This document shows positions 17,601 to 40,191 of a DNA stretch of 64,000 bases, in pieces (within the stretch, counting starts at the first letter, position 1; the number at the start of each line of letters is the position of its first letter). Where the stretch lies: NCBI RefSeq assembly GCF_009914755.1, contig NC_060939.1. One strand, 5' to 3'. A program made the position numbers and the translations under genes. The notes under the pieces are model-generated. The model made no database searches. It was not told the origin of the DNA and saw only the letters and a list, made by a program, of their open reading frames with translations. This DNA is from the human T2T-CHM13v2.0 reference genome, Homo sapiens.

Positions 17601-18845
17601 CTCAAATTGTATTAAAGACTTAAATGTATTACCCGAAACTATAAAACTACTAGAAAAAAATACAGGGGAAACACCTCAGGACATTGGTCTAGGCAAAGAT
17701 TTTATGGCTAAGACTAAAAGCACTGGGAACAAAAACAAAAATAGACAAATTCGGTTTTATTAAACAAAAAAGCTTCTGCACAGCATAGGAAACAATCAAG
17801 ACTGAAGAGAAAACCTGAAGGAGAGAATATATGTGCAAACTATTCATTTAACTGGGGACTAATATCTGGAATATAAAAGGAACTTAAGCAATTCAACAGA
17901 AAAAAAATTTAATGTGGACATAGGATCTGAACAGACATTTCTTAATATAAGACATTTGACCAACAAATAAATATATGAAACAATAACAAACCTCACTAAT
18001 CATCAAGAAAATTCAAATCAAAACCACAATGTCATCTTATCCCAGTTGTTACGTCTATTATGAAAAAGACAGTAAATGCCTATCAGGAGGCGGAGGAAAG
18101 AGAACTCATACGCTGTTGGTGGGAAGGGAAACTGGTATAGCGTTATGGGAAAAAGTACGGAGGTTTCTCAAAAAATGAAGAATAGAACTACCTATGATTC
18201 AGCAATCCCACTACTGGATATTTATCCAAAGGAAATGAAATCAGTATATCAAAGGGATTTGTGCACCCTCAAGTTTATTGCAGCACTATTCACCATGGTT
18301 AAGATATGGAATCAACCTAAATATCAATAGACAAATGAATAAACAAAATATGGTATACATACCCAATTGAATATTAATAAAAACGAATAAAATCCTGTAA
18401 TTTGGGAAACACAGATGAGCCTGGAGGACATTATGTTAAATTGAGTAAGCAAGGTGCATAAAAGAAATACTGCGTGTTTTCACTCATATGTGAGAGCCAG
18501 AAAAATTTAGATCATAGAAGTAGAATGTAGAATTGTGGTTATTAAAGCCTAGAAAGAGTAGTGGGGAGGGGAGGATAGGGAGAGATTGGTTAACAAATGT
18601 AAATTTACAGCTAGCTGGGAGGTACGAATTCTGGTGTTCTGCAGCATGGTAGGGTGAATACATTTAACTGTAACTTACTGTATAGTCTAAAAAAGCTAGA
18701 AGAGAAGATTTTCGATGTTCCCAACACAAAGAAATGTTAAATATTTCAAGTAATGAATATATTAATTACTCAACTATTACTCAACTTTCTACTCCATAAA
18801 TACTTGCAATTATTTATGTGCCAATTAAAATAAAGGAAGAAAAAT
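14627..18845 (+). mobile_element. 5'-truncated L1 (L1MA4/5-like 3' UTR), fused to the U6 copy
   Basis: Inter-ORF spacer, ORF2 start ATGACAGGAGTGAGTCCTCAC at 14800, RT motif LFADDMILY (ORF 16652-16960), L1MA-type 3' UTR and A-rich end. Confidence 0.95.
14800..18500 (+). pseudogene. Decayed L1 ORF2 (endonuclease/reverse transcriptase) with many stops and frameshifts
   Basis: Fragments [55 protein letters not shown] and FIAALFT..KIWNQPK are recognisable ORF2p segments. Confidence 0.92.
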
Positions 18846-30960: not shown

Positions 30961-32627
30961 GGACCAGGGCTGGGGGTTTAAGACAGGTTGGCCATATTTC
31001 ATAATTTTCTTTTCAAGTCTCCTTTCAGCATTTTAGTTTCTTGAAGGCAATCTTTCTAACTCCCATGCCTAGAATGAAGTCAGGGTTCAATTTGCAATGC
31101 AGTACAGTACATTTTTCTCATCTTTTTGTTCCCTTCTCCTTTATGATCTTAACTGCCACCCACACACCGTGAGCAGAGTTGGTTTGTATTAACAAAGAGT
31201 GGTATGATTTGAAAGACTGCATAAAATACTCCTCCCCACACAAATAGACCAAAAGCATCCAGGGGGCCAAGTGCTTAAAATTTCATTTTGGAGCTTACCC
31301 GATTGTAAATTAGAAAGCATTGTCATCTCCCTACTCTAAAAGGAAAGGATCCCTTGGTGGGCTACTTTGCCGAGTCACTGGGTGGATATGTTTTTGACAG
31401 TTGAAAGTATGTGCAATTCAAACTTCTTAAGGGCTCACTTGGTGCAGAGGTCCTCACTACTATTAAACAAGAAACAGAAAACACAGTGTTTTGGGAAGTA
31501 GGTAGAACTTGAAAATGTTTGTGTTCCTGGGAGGTGAAGGTGTGACTCAGCTCGCTGGGAGTTCAACTGGTCACCAGACTCTCACACGCTTCCCCTGGGG
31601 TATCTAATTAAGAATTTCTCCCAACATGACTTCAGAAAAGAAACTGGTCAACCCTGAAATTTTAGACGAGGCAAAAGCTATGTTCTGGGAATAATAGAAT
31701 GATTGCGATAAAGGATATTAAAATGATGCCTAGTGTTTCCTTCTCGCTCTTCTATGGAACAATAGATAAGCCTACAGAAAGGAGTGGGAAACTTTGCTCT
31801 TTCAGGAGTCACTGGCTACCAGGAAGAAAGAAGAAAAATGGCATACACATCTGTAAAAGTTGACACCATAGTATTTTGTTTACAGACAAAATAAAAACTA
31901 CGTGTCTTAAAATGATTGCAGGAAATTATAATTGAATCCTATAATTATTGCATACAATAAAACTAAAACATATTTTAGCTTTACGAGATAAAATATAAAA
32001 CTGAAATATAATTTAGTTTTAAGTTATCACCATTAAAGGAAGTAAGAGAAGAAGAAAAGGGAAATGGAAAGAAAATAGAGATTCAGGAGAAGAGAATAAA
32101 AACAATCTTTAATAAAAGAGAGAAAGAAGACAGAGAAAGAAAGAGAGAGAAAGAGGTGGGTAAGATGAGAAGAGAATGCCAGTAATATGAAGGGCAAAGT
32201 GATGGACACGGAGAAAAATACCTTAGGGACTGGAAACAGGATGATTGGTAGAAAGGTGAAGAGAAGAAAAAGAACAGCTTGAACAAATAATACATGTTAC
32301 AGGTGTATTAACGCCTCTTGCCCCATATCTGGTGCACAGTTGGTTTATGAGTATCAAGTAAGTCATCACTACTATAACTATGCTTCTGGCATGTCCTAAT
32401 ATCTGGAGTAGTTAATGGAACACTGGGAAATATGCCTGCTATCATTTTCAAATTGAAACAGTATATGGAATAAAGTTTTGTTTTCCTATGGAATTCGGTA
32501 TATTTTACATGTGTGTAAAGAAAATGTACTTTACAATTCCAACAGTTTATTACCAATTGGCCAAAAGTTTTTAATGTCCATGAGATTAAAATTGTCTCAT
32601 TCCAAAATACATGCAAGCAGCATTTTA

Positions 32628-32935
32628 TTTTATTTTTATTTATTTATTTATTTGAGACGGAGTCTCGCTCTGTCACCTAGTCTGGAGTGCAGTGGCGTGA
32701 TCTTGGTTCACTGCAACCTCTGCCTCCCAGGTTCAAGTGATTCTCCTGCCTCAGCCTCCTGAGTAGCTGGGACTACAGGCACGTGCCACTATGTCCGTAT
32801 AATTTTTTGTATTTTTAGTAGAGACAGGGTTTCACCGCATTAGCTAGGATGGTCTCAATCGCCTGGACTCCAGTGATCCACTCGCCTGTGCTTCCTAAAG
32901 TGCTAGGATTATAGGCATGAAAACTGCATCTGGCC
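32628..32935 (-). mobile_element. AluS (Sc-like)
   Basis: Full dimer with (TTTA)n tail; perfect 15-bp TSD GCAAGCAGCATTTTA at 32613-32627 and 32936-32950. Confidence 0.96.
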
Positions 32936-33054
32936 GCAAGCAGCATTTTAAAACCAGCATTTACTTTATTGATTTTTGCATTATATCACTTTTCAAATTA
33001 AATTTTCTTTTAATCTAATTGAGACCAAGGAGATGAAAAATAAGTCATAAAATG

Positions 33055-33635
33055 TTTATTTTTAATTTTTTAATTTTATATGTATAAATTTATGAGGTAC
33101 GAGTGTAATTTTGCTACATGGTTATTTTGCATAGTGATGAAGTCAGGGCTTTTAGTGTATCCATCACCAAAATAATGTACATCGTACCCATTAAGTAATT
33201 TCTCATTATTCACCTCCCTTTTCCCCTTCAGTCTCCACTGTCTATCATTCCACACTCTCTGTCCATGTGTACACATTATTTAGCTCCCAATTATAAATAA
33301 GAACATGCAGTATTTATCTTTCTGTGTCTGAGCTGTTTCACTTAAGGTAATGGCCTCCAGTTCCAACAATGTTGCTGCAAAAGACAAGATTTAATTCTTT
33401 TTTATGGCTAAACACTATTCCATTGTGTGCATAAACTACATTTTCTTTATCCAATTACCCATTAATGTACACTTAGGTTGAATCAATATCTTTGCTATTG
33501 TGAATAACATACTATTGTGATAAACATATGAGTGTAGATGTTTTTGATATAATGATTTCTTTTCCTTTGGGTAGATACCCAGTTGTGGGATTGCTGGATC
33601 TAATGGTCATTCTATTTTTAGTTCTTTGAGAAACA
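33055..33635 (-). mobile_element. L1PB-like 3' end
   Basis: Antisense L1 3' UTR and ORF2 end: GGGTAGATACCCAG, GGGATTGCTGGATC, ATGGCCTCCAGTTCCA. Confidence 0.88.
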
Positions 33636-34017
33636 GAATGCATGTTCTTTGTTGTCGTTTTTTCGTATCTTCCTTTTTTTCATAATTATTTACTACCAGT
33701 CTCTTTATCTTTGTGATTTCCTGCTTATTTAGCTAAATTTTTAAAAAATATGAAACACTCATAGTGCCAACTAGGAAAATCTGGGCTATTATCAGTGCCA
33801 TGCTAGGTTGTAATAGTGGCCATCAGAATGAGAGAGCTTGTAGCTTTATTGTCCTCTACCCTTTTCTGCTCTTCTTCATAGATAAGGACTTCCTGAAGTG
33901 GCAAGAAAAATTGAAGAATTAACTAAAATCATGGAAGATGTAAGAGAGGGAAAACATGCCTTTATAAAGAGATGTCACAATAATCAATAACAAGAATTAA
34001 AAAGGAAATATCATTAC

Positions 34018-34430
34018 TGTCAGGCCTCTGAGACCAAGCTAAGCCATCATATCCCCTGTGAGCTGCACATACACATCCAGATAGCCAGTTCCTGCCTTAA
34101 CTGATGACATTCCACCACAAAAGAAGTGAAAATGGCCTGTTCCTGCCTTAACTGATGACATTGTCTTGTGAAATTCCTTCTCCTGGCTCATCCTGGCTCC
34201 AAAGCTCCCCCACTGAGCACCTTGCGACCCCCACTCTGCCCGCCAGAGAACAACTCCCCTTTGACTGTAACTTTCCTTTATCTACCCAAACCCTATAAAA
34301 CGGCCCCACCCTTATCTCCCTTCACTCACTCTCTTTTCGGACTCAGCCCACCTGCACCCAGGTGAAATAAACAGCCATGTTGCTCACCCAAAGCCTGTTT
34401 GGTGGTCTCTTCACACGGACGCGAGTGAAA
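34018..34430 (+). mobile_element. LTR7 (HERV-H) solo LTR
   Basis: TGTCAGGCCTCTGAG..CAAGCTAAGCCATC start; duplicated GTTCCTGCCTTAACTGATGACATT; TATAAAA 34294; AATAAA 34366; TCTCTTCACACGGACGCGAGTGAAA end; TSD ATTAC/ATTAT. Confidence 0.96.
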
Positions 34431-34786
34431 ATTATAAATGTTATAGCATTAGAAAGAAAGTGACAGAAAACAACTTTATGCCAATATAATTTTCAAATAA
34501 TTGAAATCAAAATTCAACTTATCAAAACTGGCAATAAAAAGAAACAGAAAATATGAATAAATAATGTTGTAACTAGTAAAGAAATCAAATTTGTGATGAA
34601 AAATCTTCCTATAAGGAAAAATCTTGTTTCAGCTAGCTCCACTAAGGAATTATTTCAATCATTTAAGGTAGAAATAATGCCAAACTTACAATAACTCTGT
34701 TTTATGAGGTCAGAATGATCTTCATGTCAAAACTTCTTGAGGATAATGTAAGAAAGGAAATTTATAGGCTAAACTCATTATTGGAC

Positions 34787-35381
34787 TGAAGTAAATCAAA
34801 ATATTTACCCCCAAATATATTTCTTTGACATATTTTGAGATGGCTGCCAGAGGGACAGCAAAGAGAAGTGTCCCTGAAAAGCTGTCTTTCAGGGGCAGAG
34901 GAGATTTGCATCTGTAGAGAATCTGCCTTGATGCAGCCAGGTCTTTCCTTGTCTGAATCTAGGAAACATTAGCAGATTCTGACATCTTTAAAGGTTTAAA
35001 GAGAAATATTTGCCATCTATTCTCTCTGATGGCTACTCCCTGGGAGGTTTCATGTACACAACAAGACCACCTTTGCTAACCAAGTCTCCTCCTCTCTCCT
35101 TCCCATAACCTGTCTTGCCGCCAAAACCCCATTTACCACCCCCAACCTGTTTGCTGCCATGCTCTGTGCCTGCATTCTTTCTGTAACTTAAAGATGATAT
35201 ATAAAGTTTTGTACCTCATTGCAGGGGTTGCTTTTGGTCTTTATTCTAAAGGCTCCTGTGTCACATAAAACTGGGACCAAATAAATTTGTATTCCTTTTC
35301 TCCTATTAATCTGCCTTTTGAGAGTTAATTTTTCAGCAAACCTTCCAAGGGCGAAGGAGAGGCTTTCCCTTCACCTCTACA
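34787..35381 (+). mobile_element. MER39/MER34-group ERV1 solo LTR
   Basis: AAATATATTTCTTTGACATATTTTGAGATGGCTG near the start; AATAAATTTGTA..CCTTTTCTCCTATTAATCTGCC; TG...CA ends; TSD GGAC. Confidence 0.8.
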
Positions 35382-35872
35382 GGACATGGACATGAAAATC
35401 GCTTTTAAAAAATCAAACTGAATCCAGCAATTACCAAAACATTAATTCATAGTAACTAAGTTAATTAACTAAGTAATTAATTCATAGTAACATAGTTATG
35501 TCTCTTGGGACATTTGCTAATGTAAGTTGTATTACTGTAGAAATATAAGATTAGATTAACATCAAAATCAATTAGAAATATATATATACTATGACTATTT
35601 TAATGAATATGGAGACATATGCAATAATATTCAACATCCATTCACAGTGAAAACCTCCAGAAAACTAGGAATAGAAAGGGTGTGTTACAAAACTTATGGA
35701 AAAATAACTATTTTTATGGTATATCATTGTAAGCTTTTCTCCTGAAATGGGGAAGGAAACAAGAAAGGCATTGTCACTATCCCTATTATACATCGTACAA
35801 TAGATACAGACCAAAGTAGCAGAATTAGGAAAGAAGGGAAAAAATTATCATTATTCATATGTGGCATGATTG

Positions 35873-36462
35873 TAGTAGAGGCATGTGAACCAGAACAACT
35901 CCATCTTGAATAGGAGCCAAGTAATATGAGGCTGAAATCTACTGGGCTGCATTCCCAGACAGTTAAGGCATTCTAAGTTACAAGATGAGATAGGAGGTAG
36001 GCACAAGATACAGGTCATAAAGATGTTGCTGATAAAACAGGTTGCAGTAAAGAGGCCAGCTAAATCCTACCAAAACCAAATCCTACCAAAACCAGGACAG
36101 CCACAAGAGTGACCTCTTGTCATCCTCACTACCATACTCTTGTCAGTGCCATGACAGTTTACAGATCCAATGGCAACGTCAGGAAGTTACCCTATATGGT
36201 CTAAAAAGGGGAGGCATGAATAATCCACCCCTTGTTTAGCATATCACCAAGAAATAACCATAAAAATGGGCAACCAGCAGCCCTCGGGGCTGCTCTGTCT
36301 ATAGATTAGCCATTATTTTATTCCTTTATTTTCTTAACAAACTTGCTTTCACTTTGCACTGCCAACTAGCCCTGAATTCTTTCTTGTGTGAGACCCAAGA
36401 ACCCTCTCTTGCGGTCTGGATTGGGACCCCTTTCCTGTAACATATTTCTCTGTCCTGTAACA
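35873..36462 (+). mobile_element. MER41A LTR with duplicated terminus
   Basis: GAACCAGAACAACTCCATCTTGAATAGG; GGTCTAAAAAGGGGAGGCATGAATAATCC without the GAS block; CCCCTTTCCTGTAACA; TSD ATTG at 35869-35872 and 36463-36466. Confidence 0.9.
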
Positions 36463-36933
36463 ATTGTGTATGCAGAAAATCCAAAAGGGACTATAACTGA
36501 ATTATTAAAACTGATAAATTACTTTAATAAAGTTGCTAGATATAAGTATAAATCAGGAATCAATTGCATTTCTCTACATGAGAAACAAGTGGAAATGGAG
36601 CATTTCAAATATATTACATTTACGGCATCATCAAAAATATCAAATATTAGTATGACCCCTTTGGAAAACTTCTTGGCAACATATTCCAAAAGAGTAATGC
36701 ATGGAAACTCTGGACTCAACAATTTCATTCTTAGATATATAGACTACAAAACTCATATGTTCAAAGTAGCACTATTCACAATAGCCTCAAACTGGAAATC
36801 TCTCAAATGCCCATCCACAGTAAATGCTTAAAAAATGATGTTTTTACAAGATGTAATATATATAGCAATGAGACTTAAAATATACATAAAATTATGAGTA
36901 AATTTTATAAATGTAGTATTGGCTGAAAGAAAT

Positions 36934-37646
36934 TGTTTCAGTAAGTAGCTAGTCAGACATGAACAGGGCAGGAGAGGGCTCCCTACCAACACACACACAC
37001 AGATATACACACACACACCCACACACCCCAGGACCAGGAATGTCAGGCAGCCATCAGGTGATGGACAGGTGGTGGTGAACTCTCTCTTTAAAATAATAAT
37101 TGGCCACAGCCAGTGCCAGGGAAAAGCAGTCTCTCAATAAACAGAAACACCTAAAGCTGGTGATCAGCAGCTTCCTGATAAGATCTCAGGAACTGGGCAA
37201 ATGGGCTCAAGCATGCACACTAAGAGGCAAAATGGCAGAGTTTAACTAGTGTATCGTAATATAGGAACACTGGAATTGTAAGGTAAACACCTCAATGGAG
37301 CACGCATACAACTCCAATAAACACACTGAACATGTGACAGCCCACCCCAAGGAAAGAATCAGGAGAGAAGTAATGCAAGACCCCGGAAGCATGCCAACAT
37401 ATAAAACCCCAAGTCAAAAGGTCTAACTGCACACTTGAGCTCTCAAGTCACCTGCTTGGCCCTCTTCCATGTGTATGTTACTTCCTCTCATTCCTGCCCT
37501 AAAACCTTTTAATAAACTTTCACTCCTGCTGTAAAACTTGCTTCAGTCATCTCAGCCTGCTTTATGCTCCCTCGGTTGAATTCTTTCTTCTGAGGAGGCA
37601 AGAATTGAGGTTCCTGCAGACCCATACGGACTCACCTCCAGTAACA
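36934..37646 (+). mobile_element. MER50 ERV1 solo LTR
   Basis: GTAGCTAGTCAGACATGAACAGGGCAGGAGAGGG; CAGGAATGTCAGGC..CCATCAGGTGATGG; GAGGAGGCAAGAATTGAGGTT; TSD AAAT. Confidence 0.88.
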
Positions 37647-38145
37647 AAATCATCTACAAAACAATTCTTACTGGGTGATTCAAATTATTTAAAGGTCAAA
37701 AATAGATTAGAATGGGACAGAAGAGGGGCAGGGATTTTGGGTAATGTGCTATTTCTTGATCTGGTGCTGGTTATAAGAGAACTTTCACTTTTGAAATTTC
37801 ATTGAACTGTTCACTGATGCTTTATGTGCTCTTGTGATATTATACTCCTATATAATAGTTCTAATAAATAGAACTTAGTATAAAACTTCTCTCAGAAAAC
37901 TATAAAACATTGATTGGAAAAATAAAAGTTGTAAAGACACCAAAGACACTGGGTCTCCAAAACTAGTATCTATTTGATACAATCTCAATGTTGTAGAAAT
38001 TAGCAAATGGTTTTAAAATTTGTGTGGCAGTGTAATGGGTCACACACAATAAAGACAATCTTGGAGAACAGAACACGGTTAAAAGTCTTCCTTTACTGAA
38101 TGTCAAGACTTACAGAGCAATAATAACTAAATACGTAAGGAACTT

Positions 38146-38374
<229 letters not shown>

Positions 38375-40191
38375 AAGGGATTTGTTTTTAGGTAGACAAA
38401 TAAATAGACTAGAATACAATAGAGTAGAATAGGAGAGCACAGAAAAATAACCTTGCTGTAACACTGTGGAAGCATGGGAAAAGGATGCCTTATTTGAAAA
38501 TGTTGCTGAGACAATCAGATATTCATTTAGAAAAATTTTAAATTCATTTTAGATAAATTTTAGAACTAAATGTAAAACACAACCAACAAAATTTATAGAA
38601 AATGATACAGAAGAATATTTACATAATCTCACAATATAGAGTCACTTCTTAAACATTGACAGAAAACTAATGATACATAAATATTTTAAATTAGGGTATA
38701 TTAAAATTCAAACAATAAAAAATAAAATAAAAATTTATTTTCACAAAATGGTTAAAAGGAAAGGCATGAAATGGGAGAAGACATTCTCCACACATATCAC
38801 TAACAAAGGCAACTTATTTCAATTATGTAGAGAAGTCCTACAAAATAAAAACAAAACTACAGGCAACTCAAAAGAAAAATGGCAAAACACTTGAACATGC
38901 ATTCCACAAAAGGGATATCCAAAGGGCCAAAGGTTGCTTAATATCCTAATTAGTCACATAAATAAAAATTAAAACAATTGTGAGATATCATTTACTACCC
39001 AAGAGAATGACTAAAATAAAAATGTCAAATATTGGTAAGAATATGGAACAAGTGTGAATTTTAGACACTATTTGTAGAAGCATAAATTAAGATAATTTTG
39101 GAAAACTATTAAGCATTATCAATTAAATTTGAAAATATTCTCATCCTATGACTCAGCAATTCTAATCTTAAGTATACCCAAAAGACATGTCTTTACATGT
39201 ACACCAAAGAAATATGGACAACAAATGTGCTTAGCTACAAATTTCATAATAGCAATCCATAAACAGAAGTAACCCAATTTCTGTCAATATTAGAAAGGAT
39301 AAAGTATAATCAGACAGCGAAATATTATGCAGCAATGAAAAAAGTGAAAAATGGCCACATGTAACAACATGAATGAATCTCATCAACATGATGTTGATGA
39401 AAAGACCTTTACCACAAAAAATACGGTAAAATTTTATTTATATAACACTCAAAACAAAACCTAAGAAAAATGTAGTGTTTGAAAATGTGTACTTATGTTA
39501 AAATGATAAAGAAATGCAAGGAAATAATAAACAAAAATATCAGGAAGGTTATTACCTTTGACAGAGAGGATAATTAGTGACTGGGGGAAGGTATTAAGAT
39601 GGAATTAAATCTTTACATTACTACTAAGATATTTTTCACCATTTTAAACAATCCCAGTTAAAGGCATTTTAAGCAGAATGCAGGCTGCCTCATATTGTGC
39701 ACTCACTGCCTAACTCCAAGATTCCCTTTATAAAGGATACAAAGTGCAGAGCAATAATGCAAGGTGCGGCATCATTGCTCTAATGTTATACAATAAAACA
39801 ACCTTGCCAGAAAGTCCAGATAAACAAAATAGTCTTTTCTCCCTTGAATATGGATTTAATCTCACAGTTCTATTTTATCATAGTCCTGAAAACTAAAATA
39901 TTTGTGAGGGCTAAAGTTACTTGGTTAGCAATAGCTCTTTCAATAAGATGGCATTCACCATTTATATTTGTTTTTATTTTCTATCTTAATAAAAACCTTG
40001 TGATGTTTCAGTCTAGCAGCCAAATAAATATAAGAGATTTCAGAACGTATGAGGCAAATTTTCGATCTTCCTGACAGTTCTATGTTGTTTCTGGCCACAT
40101 CCCATATGGACTTAGCTATAAGATATGCTGGGAACTTAAGTAGCAGTTTTGTCCTCGTGACCACTCAACCAGGCTTATGGCTTGTGTATAT

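What the first reader, a model, noticed from the sequence alone, without database searches (positions are those of the whole stretch)
34018..37646. Four co-oriented ERV1 LTRs from different families stacked in 3.6 kb
Seen: LTR7, MER39-like, MER41A and MER50, all on the + strand, each with its own 4-5 bp TSD (ATTAY, GGAC, ATTG, AAAT) and separated by 350-500 bp of old L1. Only one other clear ERV1 LTR occurs in the remaining 60 kb. Motifs: ACAAAAGA (34117), CCCCACCC (34304), octamer ATTTGCAT (34904), TEAD-type CATTCC/GGAATG (35950, 37037), TGATAA (36030, 37176), ETS CCGGAAG (37383). Known: LTR7 is active in pluripotent cells; MER41 and MER50 copies act as trophoblast enhancers; a MER39 copy drives decidual prolactin. 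Inference: a recurrent retroviral integration hotspot, perhaps self-reinforcing through open germline/embryonic chromatin, that may work as a primate-specific composite embryo/placenta regulatory module.
Basis: partly seen in the sequence, partly recalled or inferred. Interest (0 to 1): 0.7.

Follow-up and report, generated by a model that had tools for sequence, protein, structure and literature searches.

The report
Four old retroviral LTRs side by side
Four leftover control ends (solo LTRs) of four different ancient retroviruses sit within 3.6 kb of an old L1 in a gene desert on chromosome 15, which looks like an ordinary chance cluster in which only the youngest one has any recorded activity.

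Summary
Window 34018-37642 carries four complete solo LTRs, all on the + strand. Each is flanked by its own target-site duplication, and they are separated by pieces of one old + strand L1.

Names, tested against copies named in print:
- E1 is a HERV-H LTR (LTR7 group; subfamily not settled).
- E3 is MER41 of the A type (it lacks the 43-nt STAT1 block).
- E4 is MER50.
- E2 belongs to a family of its own and is only about 56-58% like the MER39 (PRL) and MER39B (ENTPD1) type copies. "MER39-like" holds only loosely.

Divergence gives the age order E2 > E4 > E3 > E1, roughly 65-110, 45-75, 35-60 and 15-25 million years. These were four separate events spread over tens of millions of years.

Under uniform placement, about 40-210 such four-LTR clusters are expected genome-wide, 4-27 of them on one strand. 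A hotspot is therefore not needed.

Only E1 has locus-specific functional evidence: two RefSeq "OCT4-NANOG-H3K4me1 hESC enhancer" features. The nearest protein-coding gene is about 470 kb away. Ordinary, already-annotated repeats.

The parts
34013..34017 (.). 5' target-site duplication of E1 (ATTAC)
   Evidence: Sequence. The ends of E1 were fixed against 7 relatives.
34018..34430 (+). E1: solo LTR of HERV-H (LTR7 group), 413 bp. It holds a 51-nt tandem duplication and the 8-nt AAAAGAAG motif.
34431..34435 (.). 3' target-site duplication of E1 (ATTAT; 4 of 5 letters match the 5' copy)
33572..34573 (.). Two adjoining RefSeq functional features named 'OCT4-NANOG-H3K4me1 hESC enhancer' (33572-34072 and 34073-34573). 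Together they cover E1.
34436..34783 (+). L1 remnant, piece between E1 and E2 (ORF2-derived)
   Evidence: 5 of 5 hits are L1 ORF2p chains, but weak (E 0.46-0.9).
34784..34787 (.). 5' target-site duplication of E2 (GGAC)
34788..35382 (+). E2: solo LTR of an old ERV1-type family, 595 bp. It is distantly related to MER39 and MER39B; the exact family name is not settled.
35383..35386 (.). 3' target-site duplication of E2 (GGAC)
35387..35868 (+). L1 remnant, piece between E2 and E3. It is taken as L1 from its position between two ORF2-matching pieces, not from a protein hit of its own.
   Evidence: only short dispersed DNA matches; no ORF2p hit.
35869..35872 (.). 5' target-site duplication of E3 (ATTG)
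35873..36462 (+). E3: solo LTR MER41, A type, 590 bp. It has a 16-nt tandem duplication of its own and a 20-nt 3' extension shared with some relatives.
36463..36466 (.). 3' target-site duplication of E3 (ATTG)
36467..36930 (+). L1 remnant, piece between E3 and E4 (ORF2-derived)
   Evidence: L1 ORF2 protein, E 6.4e-5, two matched stretches.
36931..36934 (.). 5' target-site duplication of E4 (AAAT)
36935..37638 (+). E4: solo LTR MER50, 704 bp, holding an (AC)19 microsatellite
37639..37642 (.). 3' target-site duplication of E4 (AAAT)

Best explanation
Four unrelated germline retrovirus integrations landed in the same old, + strand L1 remnant in a gene desert. They came from a MER39-related ERV1, then MER50 (the HERV-FRD lineage), then MER41, and last HERV-H, and they happened tens of millions of years apart. 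Each provirus later collapsed to a solo LTR by recombination between its two LTRs, which left one LTR between intact target-site duplications. Their closeness and shared strand are best read as a chance cluster in DNA where insertions are tolerated. It is not a targeted hotspot, and there is no evidence that the four work together. The youngest LTR, the HERV-H one, keeps the pluripotency-factor sites of its family and is recorded as an OCT4/NANOG-bound reporter enhancer in human ES cells. The other three carry their families' inherited motifs, with no locus-specific sign of use.

Shown here: the elements, their ends, their families and their relative ages. Inferred: the mode of solo-LTR formation, chance as the cause of the clustering, and the absence of joint function.
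For: - Real repeats with full-length relatives.
- Ends and target-site duplications fixed against relatives.
- E4 matches the two MER50 copies of print, upstream of MFSD2A and TNFAIP2 (nhmmer E 1e-73 and 8e-73).
- E3 matches an LTR about 18 kb upstream of IFI6 end to end (E 4.6e-76). E3 and 7 of 7 relatives lack exactly that copy's 43-nt block with tandem GAS sites, which is the printed A/B difference.
- E1 matches the UCA1 promoter LTR (LTR7C/HERVH in print) at 81-83% in two blocks. Its relatives occur as same-strand pairs 5.0-5.7 kb apart. Its 7 of 7 nearest copies are preceded by one and the same proviral flank.
- E2 is 75-79% identical to its own family but 56-58% to the PRL and ENTPD1 LTRs.
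- Non-CpG distances to nearest relatives are 0.045, 0.156, 0.200 and 0.286 for E1, E3, E4 and E2.
- L1 ORF2 matches in the spacers are co-linear once the LTR lengths are subtracted: 240 codons of DNA against 256 residues of ORF2p.
- The uniform null gives 38-212 clusters genome-wide.
- The hESC enhancer features overlap E1 only; such features cover 1.3% of chr15.
Against: - Locally the cluster is unusual: P about 0.003 for 4 of 5 LTRs within 3.63 kb of a 64-kb window, and 0.0004 with strand.
- All four LTRs also share the strand of the host L1.
- My null is analytic, uses recalled genome totals and ignores regional heterogeneity. It shows that chance suffices, not that chance is the cause.
- I saw no chromatin or expression data for trophoblast or decidua, so use of E2-E4 is not excluded.
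- MER41A and MER50 copies are reported in print as trophoblast enhancers.
Confidence: 0.8

Rival explanations
1. Recurrent integration hotspot. An early LTR kept the site open in germline or early-embryo chromatin. Later gammaretrovirus-like viruses, which favour active enhancers and promoters, were drawn to the same few kilobases.
For: Four ERV1-type LTRs lie within 3.6 kb, against roughly 0.13-0.20 expected per 3.6 kb; the local P is about 0.003. All are on one strand. The oldest element, E2, carries an octamer inherited from its family (6 of 7 relatives). E1 lies in an annotated hESC enhancer. The preference of gammaretroviruses for active regulatory DNA is established knowledge that I recall; it was not checked here.
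Against: Tens to hundreds of such clusters are expected genome-wide without any hotspot. The finding was picked out after the fact from a genome scan. The insertions are spread over a six-fold range of divergence. Integration preference predicts no shared strand. No further ERV1 copy of the tested families is nearby. The site is an AT-rich L1 in a gene desert, not a promoter-like region.
Confidence: 0.07
2. Composite regulatory module. The four LTRs together act as a primate-specific enhancer block for embryo and placenta, kept by selection.
For: E1 overlaps two curated hESC enhancer features. Print reports LTR7 and HERVH-int as enriched among the strongest hESC reporter enhancers, and MER41A/B/C and MER50 copies as trophoblast enhancers. 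CATTCC and TGATAA in E3 are kept in 7 of 7 and 5 of 7 relatives.
Against: No RefSeq enhancer or silencer feature overlaps E2-E4. The nearest protein-coding gene, SEMA6D, is about 470 kb away, and an uncharacterised lncRNA ends about 41 kb upstream. The 6-mers occur at chance frequency, 4 against 2.4 expected and 5 against 3.6 expected. E3 has none of the STAT1 sites. Each element is about as diverged as its relatives are from one another, so there is no sign of constraint.
Confidence: 0.1
3. Not four independent insertions. The block is one composite or rearranged element, or it was assembled by duplication or recombination.
For: None beyond the closeness and the shared strand.
Against: Each LTR has its own matching 4-5 bp duplication at ends defined by relatives. 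The four belong to different families with different divergence. The L1 pieces between them continue one another in ORF2 order. No relative of any of the four was found with the same neighbours.
Confidence: 0.02

Closest known systems
LTR7 / HERV-H solo LTRs (HERVHF group of ERV1 in Repbase)
   Same: E1 aligns with the UCA1 promoter LTR (LTR7C/HERVH in print). Its nearest relatives flank proviruses. It carries AAAAGAAG and a tandem duplication of the kind described for LTR7 blocks. It overlaps an OCT4/NANOG hESC enhancer feature.
   Different: Subfamily not settled. E1 stands 0.045 from its nearest copies, while they stand 0.026 from one another. It is solo, whereas print stresses LTR-flanked HERVH copies in co-opted roles.
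MER41A (MER41-int, HERVW9 group)
   Same: Full-length match to an IFI6-upstream MER41-type LTR. Exact absence of the 43-nt STAT1 block that print gives as the A versus B difference.
   Different: No detectable likeness to the AIM2-upstream LTR that print calls MER41B (z 0.4). That copy shares only the GAS-bearing centre with the IFI6 copy. E3 has a 16-nt duplication of its own and a 20-nt 3' extension.
MER50 (MER50-int, HERV-FRD lineage)
   Same: Matches both MER50 enhancers described upstream of MFSD2A and TNFAIP2.
   Different: No nearby gene and no recorded activity. It holds an (AC)19 array that most relatives lack.
MER39 (PRL decidual promoter) and MER39B (ENTPD1 placental promoter)
   Same: Same sense, a shared 3' end, and a likeness strongest in the last ~150 bp. 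Overall identity is 56% to the PRL copy (z 8.5) and 58% to the ENTPD1 copy (z 11.5).
   Different: Far below the 75-79% that E2 shows to its own family; nhmmer finds no match to the PRL copy and only the last ~150 bp of the ENTPD1 copy. E2's family shows provirus-like pairs and shared inner flanks, whereas print lists MER39 and MER39B without a characterised inner part.

Membership tests
Solo LTR of an endogenous retrovirus (all four) | One complete LTR, with ends as in relatives, between matching short target-site duplications | tested here: met
   GGAC, ATTG and AAAT are perfect; ATTAC / ATTAT match in 4 of 5 letters.
LTR7 group (HERV-H) | Sequence likeness to a copy named in print | tested here: met
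   UCA1 5' LTR (LTR7C/HERVH): E1 1-69 at 82.6% and E1 200-391 at 81.4%.
LTR7 group (HERV-H) | Relatives flank proviruses of about 5-6 kb | tested here: met
   Four same-strand pairs 5.0-5.7 kb apart among 40 scored hits. 7 of 7 fetched relatives share one upstream inner flank.
LTR7up / 7u1 subfamilies | The 8-nt AAAAGAAG insertion in block 2b (Carter et al. 2022, passages seen) | tested here: inconclusive
   The 8-mer is present at 34119 and in 6 of 7 relatives, next to a 51-nt tandem duplication.
MER41A | Likeness to a MER41 copy of print | tested here: met
   IFI6-upstream LTR, E 4.6e-76. Print names an upstream MER41 at IFI6 but not its distance, so the identity of that copy is inferred.
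MER41A | Lacks the 43-nt STAT1-motif block that MER41B has | tested here: met
   0 of 43 letters present and 0 GAS sites in E3 and in 7 of 7 relatives.
MER41A | Near-identity to MER41B apart from that block (review's wording), tested on MER41.AIM2 | tested here: not met
   There is no likeness between E3 and the AIM2-upstream LTR (z 0.4). The AIM2 copy is itself only weakly like the IFI6 copy (z 16.8 over about 220 nt), so this speaks to the AIM2 copy's divergence rather than against E3.
MER50 | Likeness to copies named in print | tested here: met
   The copy about 13 kb upstream of MFSD2A (print: 12 kb) and the copy 3.5-5 kb upstream of TNFAIP2 (print: 4.5 kb).
MER39 | Family-level likeness to the PRL exon-1a LTR | tested here: not met
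   There is no nhmmer hit, and the alignment gives only 56% identity (z 8.5).
MER39B | Family-level likeness to the ENTPD1 promoter LTR | tested here: not met
   A sense LTR lies 17 kb inside the annotated ENTPD1 gene (L036). E2 matches only its last ~150 nt by nhmmer (E 6.6e-17) and is 58% identical overall. That this LTR is the printed MER39B is inferred.
L1 (host of the insertions) | ORF2 protein likeness on the + strand, pieces in order | tested here: met
   Third spacer E 6.4e-5. First spacer weak, E 0.46-0.9. Second spacer no hit. No Pfam hit for 10 pieces.
Enhancer | Experimental record at this locus | tested here: inconclusive
   Only E1 is covered by RefSeq hESC enhancer features. That these features come from the ChIP-STARR-seq study read is recalled. 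No data for other cell types were on hand.
Integration hotspot | More clustering than a null model gives | tested here: not met
   The uniform null gives 38-212 clusters genome-wide, 4-27 on one strand. The null is analytic and uses recalled totals.

The most novel reading that the evidence does not exclude
The site is a self-reinforcing landing pad. The oldest LTR (E2, with its family's octamer) created germline or early-embryo open chromatin in an otherwise inert L1. Successive ERV1 viruses, which favour active regulatory DNA, were then captured there one after another. The block now forms a stratified enhancer whose layers record successive viral tropisms: pluripotent cells for HERV-H, and trophoblast for MER41 and MER50.
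Probability: 0.05. Interest if true: 0.6.

Novelty: already known. Interest (0 to 1): 0.15.

Why it matters
If the cluster were a true hotspot or a joint enhancer, it would give a concrete locus for asking whether old LTRs steer later integrations, and how layered viral enhancers combine.

As it stands, it is a textbook example of independent solo LTRs nested in an L1. It is useful mainly as a caution: family names recalled from sequence alone need checking. A locally striking cluster is also expected many times over in a 3-Gb genome.

Tried and rejected
1. I first judged E3 "not MER41", because it has no match anywhere in 40 kb around the 5' part of AIM2. I withdrew this after the IFI6-upstream copy bridged the two.

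2. I first judged E2 "no likeness to MER39" from blastn and nhmmer. A Smith-Waterman comparison with shuffles then showed a weak but real likeness.

3. Naming E2:
- The nearest genes of 36 hits gave no known LTR-driven gene.
- A 26-nt pattern search gave 544 matches but lists only 100, none of them in ENTPD1.
- 50 kb of ENTPD1 gave only a distant relative.

4. L1 continuity at DNA level failed. The second spacer finds only six matches of 45-53 nt in the genome, and no spacer has a homologue in the sequence I held.

5. Pfam found nothing in 10 open stretches of the spacers and flanks.

6. Rfam found nothing in 32000-40000.

7. The masked-repeat table of chr15 carries no family names and is sparse, so no empirical genome-wide cluster count could be made.

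8. A search of papers for clustered solo LTRs or integration hotspots of endogenous retroviruses returned 202 papers. I saw the listing of 12 only, and none is on this question.

9. Supplementary tables were closed. Those of Carter 2022, Yu 2023, Frost 2023 and Barakat 2018 may list these very copies.
Full report
WHAT IS THERE

The stretch 34013-37642 of the window (T2T chr15:44,488,013-44,491,642) holds four dispersed repeats. Searched one at a time against the whole reference, each finds thousands of first-look candidates: 3086, 2633, 3715 and 2220, of which the tool scored 40 each. Relatives cover each repeat from end to end. Identity to the best copies is as follows.
- E1: 92-95%.
- E2: 72-79%.
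- E3: 81-85%.
- E4: 74-81%.

I fetched 7, 7, 7 and 6 relatives with short flanks and aligned the termini. Homology to relatives starts and stops at the following places.
- E1: 34018 to 34430.
- E2: 34788 to 35382.
- E3: 35871/35873 to 36462.
- E4: 36935 to 37638.

Directly outside these ends lie matching short duplications.
- E1: ATTAC / ATTAT.
- E2: GGAC / GGAC.
- E3: ATTG / ATTG.
- E4: AAAT / AAAT.

For E3 the first bases differ from the TGTCAGAGG start of its relatives. Reading the LTR from 35873 needs two small changes and gives a perfect duplication. Reading it from 35871 gives none.

E3 also carries a 20-nt 3' extension. Relatives L015 and L020 have it too, and their own duplications (AAAA, GTAG) flank the extended end.

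All four elements are in + sense. So each is a complete solo LTR, and each marks its own integration event.

THE HOST SEQUENCE

The spacers are A-rich on the + strand.
- A 120-codon open stretch of the third spacer matches human L1 ORF2 protein in two separate stretches. The first begins at residue 706 and the second lies near the C-terminus (E 6.4e-5).
- A 45-codon stretch of the first spacer has only L1 ORF2p chains as hits, 5 of 5, at residues 450-492. These hits are weak (E 0.46-0.9).
- Two open stretches of the second spacer gave no ORF2p hit at E up to 10. Its DNA finds only six short matches in the genome.
- Ten open stretches gave no meaningful Pfam match at E up to 0.1; two had single chance-level hits to unrelated families, far below their cut-offs.

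The two matched starts are 1912 nt apart in the window. Subtracting E2 and E3 with one duplication each leaves 719 nt, or 240 codons, against 256 residues in ORF2p. The pieces therefore continue one another.

I conclude that E2, E3 and E4 interrupt one old + strand L1. E1 interrupts it too, if the sequence upstream of E1 is also L1, which I could not show. The ORF2 remnant is broken by stops, by frame changes, by at least one large internal deletion and by the LTR insertions. I give no places for these breaks.

NAMES

No repeat library was on hand, so I compared each LTR with copies that papers name and place.

E4
- A paper on trophoblast enhancers places a MER50 12 kb upstream of MFSD2A and another 4.5 kb upstream of TNFAIP2 (passages seen).
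- E4 matches an element about 13 kb upstream of MFSD2A (nhmmer E 1.2e-73).
- It also matches an element 3.5-5 kb upstream of TNFAIP2 (E 8.4e-73 and 2.6e-19).
- MER50 is supported.

E3
- A review says MER41.AIM2, a MER41B, lies 220 bp upstream of AIM2. It says MER41A differs from MER41B by a 43-bp deletion that removes the STAT1 motif. It also says IFI6, APOL1 and SECTM1 depend on upstream MER41 copies (passages seen).
- I located an LTR with two GAS sites 21 nt apart, just upstream of the AIM2 pyrin exon. E3 shows no likeness to it (z 0.4), and I first took that as a refutation.
- Then 20 kb upstream of each of IFI6, APOL1 and SECTM1 showed an LTR about 18 kb upstream of IFI6. E3 matches it end to end (E 4.6e-76).
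- That IFI6 copy is also weakly like the AIM2 LTR over about 220 central bases (z 16.8).
- In the alignment the IFI6 copy carries a block of exactly 43 nt with tandem GAS sites. E3 lacks the block.
- E3 and 7 of 7 relatives have 0 of these 43 letters and no GAS site at all.
- E3 is therefore MER41 of the A type.
- That the IFI6 copy is the one meant in print is inferred.

E1
- The 5' LTR of UCA1, called LTR7C/HERVH in print, aligns with E1 at 82.6% (E1 1-69) and 81.4% (E1 200-391).
- Among the 40 scored relatives, four same-strand pairs lie 5.0-5.7 kb apart.
- All 7 fetched relatives are preceded by one and the same flank, so they are 3' LTRs of proviruses.
- E1 carries AAAAGAAG at 34119, as do 6 of 7 relatives. 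It lies between two copies of a 31-nt repeat with a 51-nt period.
- Carter et al. 2022 (passages seen) describe this 8-mer as an insertion unique to 7up and 7u1, and describe a tandem duplication of block 2a. They also say other subfamilies have SOX2/3 sites elsewhere.
- I could compare no named LTR7, 7B or 7Y copy.
- E1 is a HERV-H LTR. Its subfamily is open.

E2
- The PRL exon-1a LTR is a 498-bp MER39 in the gene's sense.
- blastn and nhmmer find nothing between it and E2 or 7 relatives of E2.
- A Smith-Waterman comparison finds a sense-only likeness. It is strongest in the last ~155 nt, with a shared end, and is 56% over nearly the full length (z 8.5).
- ENTPD1 is said to use a MER39B promoter. 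In the first 50 kb of the gene there is one related LTR in sense. It is like E2 at 58% (z 11.5) and like the PRL copy at 59% (z 5.6).
- E2 is 75-79% identical to its own relatives.
- So E2 belongs to a third family of this wider group. "MER39-like" is right only loosely.
- Three of 7 relatives share one upstream flank, and a pattern hit lies 5.4 kb from one of the LTR hits on the same strand. This suggests proviral copies exist.
- Naming E2 further needs a repeat library or the inner genes. I stop there.

Repbase files LTR7, MER41, MER50, MER39 and MER39B all under ERV1 (table seen).

AGE

Kimura distances without CpG sites, from each element to its fetched relatives, are as follows. The value in brackets is the distance of the relatives from one another.
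- E1: 0.045 (0.026).
- E3: 0.156 (0.153).
- E4: 0.200 (0.195).
- E2: 0.286 (0.265).

The relatives are the best-scoring copies, so they are not a fair sample.

Taking half of each distance, and about 0.032 for E1's own branch, I applied two rates. The first is a recalled 2.2e-9 per site per year. The second is 1.3-1.7e-9, which I get by setting E3 to the 45-60 million years printed for MER41.
- E1: roughly 15-25 million years.
- E3: 35-60 million years.
- E4: 45-77 million years.
- E2: 65-110 million years.

Print gives MER50 as Simiiformes-specific. It gives LTR7 subfamilies as ranging from before 25 million years ago down to hominoid-specific.

The absolute figures are rough, and E2's is probably inflated by diversity within its family. 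The order E2 > E4 > E3 > E1 is firm.

MOTIFS

- The 6-mers are at chance frequency. CATTCC/GGAATG occurs 4 times against 2.4 expected. TGATAA occurs 5 times against 3.6 expected.
- The 7-mer and the 8-mers occur once each, against 0.04-0.33 expected.
- Most motifs are inherited from the families:
  - octamer in 6 of 7 E2 relatives;
  - CATTCC in 7 of 7 E3 relatives;
  - TGATAA in 5 of 7 E3 relatives;
  - CCCCACCC in 7 of 7 E1 relatives;
  - ACAAAAGA in 6 of 7 E1 relatives.

IS THE CLUSTER MORE THAN CHANCE?

I used 112,000-175,000 ERV1 copies in 3.1 Gb; these totals are recalled. Uniform placement then gives 38-212 runs of four within 3.63 kb genome-wide, and 4-27 on one strand. Both formula and simulation agree.

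For one 64-kb window with five LTRs the chance is 0.0032, or 0.0004 with strand. There are about 48,700 such windows.

Real LTRs are unevenly spread, which raises the expectation further. The finding was picked from a genome scan. Chance suffices.

FUNCTION

RefSeq lists two adjoining features named "OCT4-NANOG-H3K4me1 hESC enhancer" at 33572-34072 and 34073-34573. Together they cover E1. Nothing is listed over E2-E4. Features of this series cover 1.3% of chr15.

I recall that these features derive from the ChIP-STARR-seq study. Its text reports LTR7 and HERVH-int as most enriched among the strongest hESC enhancers (passages seen).

The region is a gene desert.
- A U6 pseudogene lies in the window.
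- An uncharacterised lncRNA ends 41 kb upstream.
- SEMA6D starts about 470 kb downstream.

E3 lacks the interferon-responsive block. MER41A/B/C and MER50 copies are reported as trophoblast enhancers, but nothing ties these two copies to that role.

VERDICT

The hotspot and module readings are not needed, and beyond E1 they have no support. These are ordinary, already-annotated repeats.

Noticed in passing
window 33572-34573: Two adjoining RefSeq 'OCT4-NANOG-H3K4me1 hESC enhancer' features cover the HERV-H LTR and its flanks. Another hESC enhancer feature ('OCT4-NANOG hESC enhancer') lies 23 kb beyond the window end.
   Followed up: partly
L006:1101-1759 (chr1, just upstream of the AIM2 pyrin exon): The LTR that print calls MER41B at AIM2 shares only its GAS-bearing centre with the IFI6-upstream MER41-type copy. 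It shares nothing detectable with the A-type copies, and only 57 first-look candidates were found for the 3-kb stretch holding it. It looks like a much more diverged or different subfamily than the review's wording suggests.
   Followed up: partly
window 36443-36462; L015, L020, L021: Some MER41 A-type copies end with a 20-nt extension that repeats the LTR's last bases and resembles the start of the inner sequence. Target-site duplications flank the extended end, so it was part of the integrated LTR.
   Followed up: partly
window 36062-36094: A 16-nt unit is duplicated in tandem inside E3. It is absent from the relative L015 and from the IFI6 copy.
   Followed up: no
window 36989-37026: An (AC)19 microsatellite lies inside the MER50 LTR. 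Most relatives align on both sides of it but not across it.
   Followed up: no
L008, L012, L014; G000 chr11:121.432-121.438 Mb: Three of 7 relatives of E2 share the same upstream flank, and a perfect pattern hit lies 5.4 kb from an LTR hit on the same strand. This family therefore seems to have proviral copies, whereas print lists MER39 and MER39B without a characterised inner part.
   Followed up: no
L040-L046: All seven nearest relatives of E1 are 3' LTRs of proviruses and are closer to one another (0.026) than E1 is to them (0.045). E1 is an older or side-branch member next to a young burst.
   Followed up: partly
window 38149-38372: A stretch of about 225 nt matches many places in every fetched gene flank at 70-80% identity. 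I take it for an old Alu-type SINE; the name is recalled and was not tested.
   Followed up: no
window 33283-33634: A repeat matches window 18163-18497 on the other strand (70%) and a stretch upstream of APOL1 (72%). Its kind is unknown. It lies just upstream of the L1 piece that E1 sits in.
   Followed up: no
L033:2353-2811 (10-20 kb upstream of SECTM1) and L029:6119-6311 (upstream of IFI6): A further HERV-H-type LTR and a fragment of the E2 family turned up in gene flanks that were fetched for another purpose.
   Followed up: no
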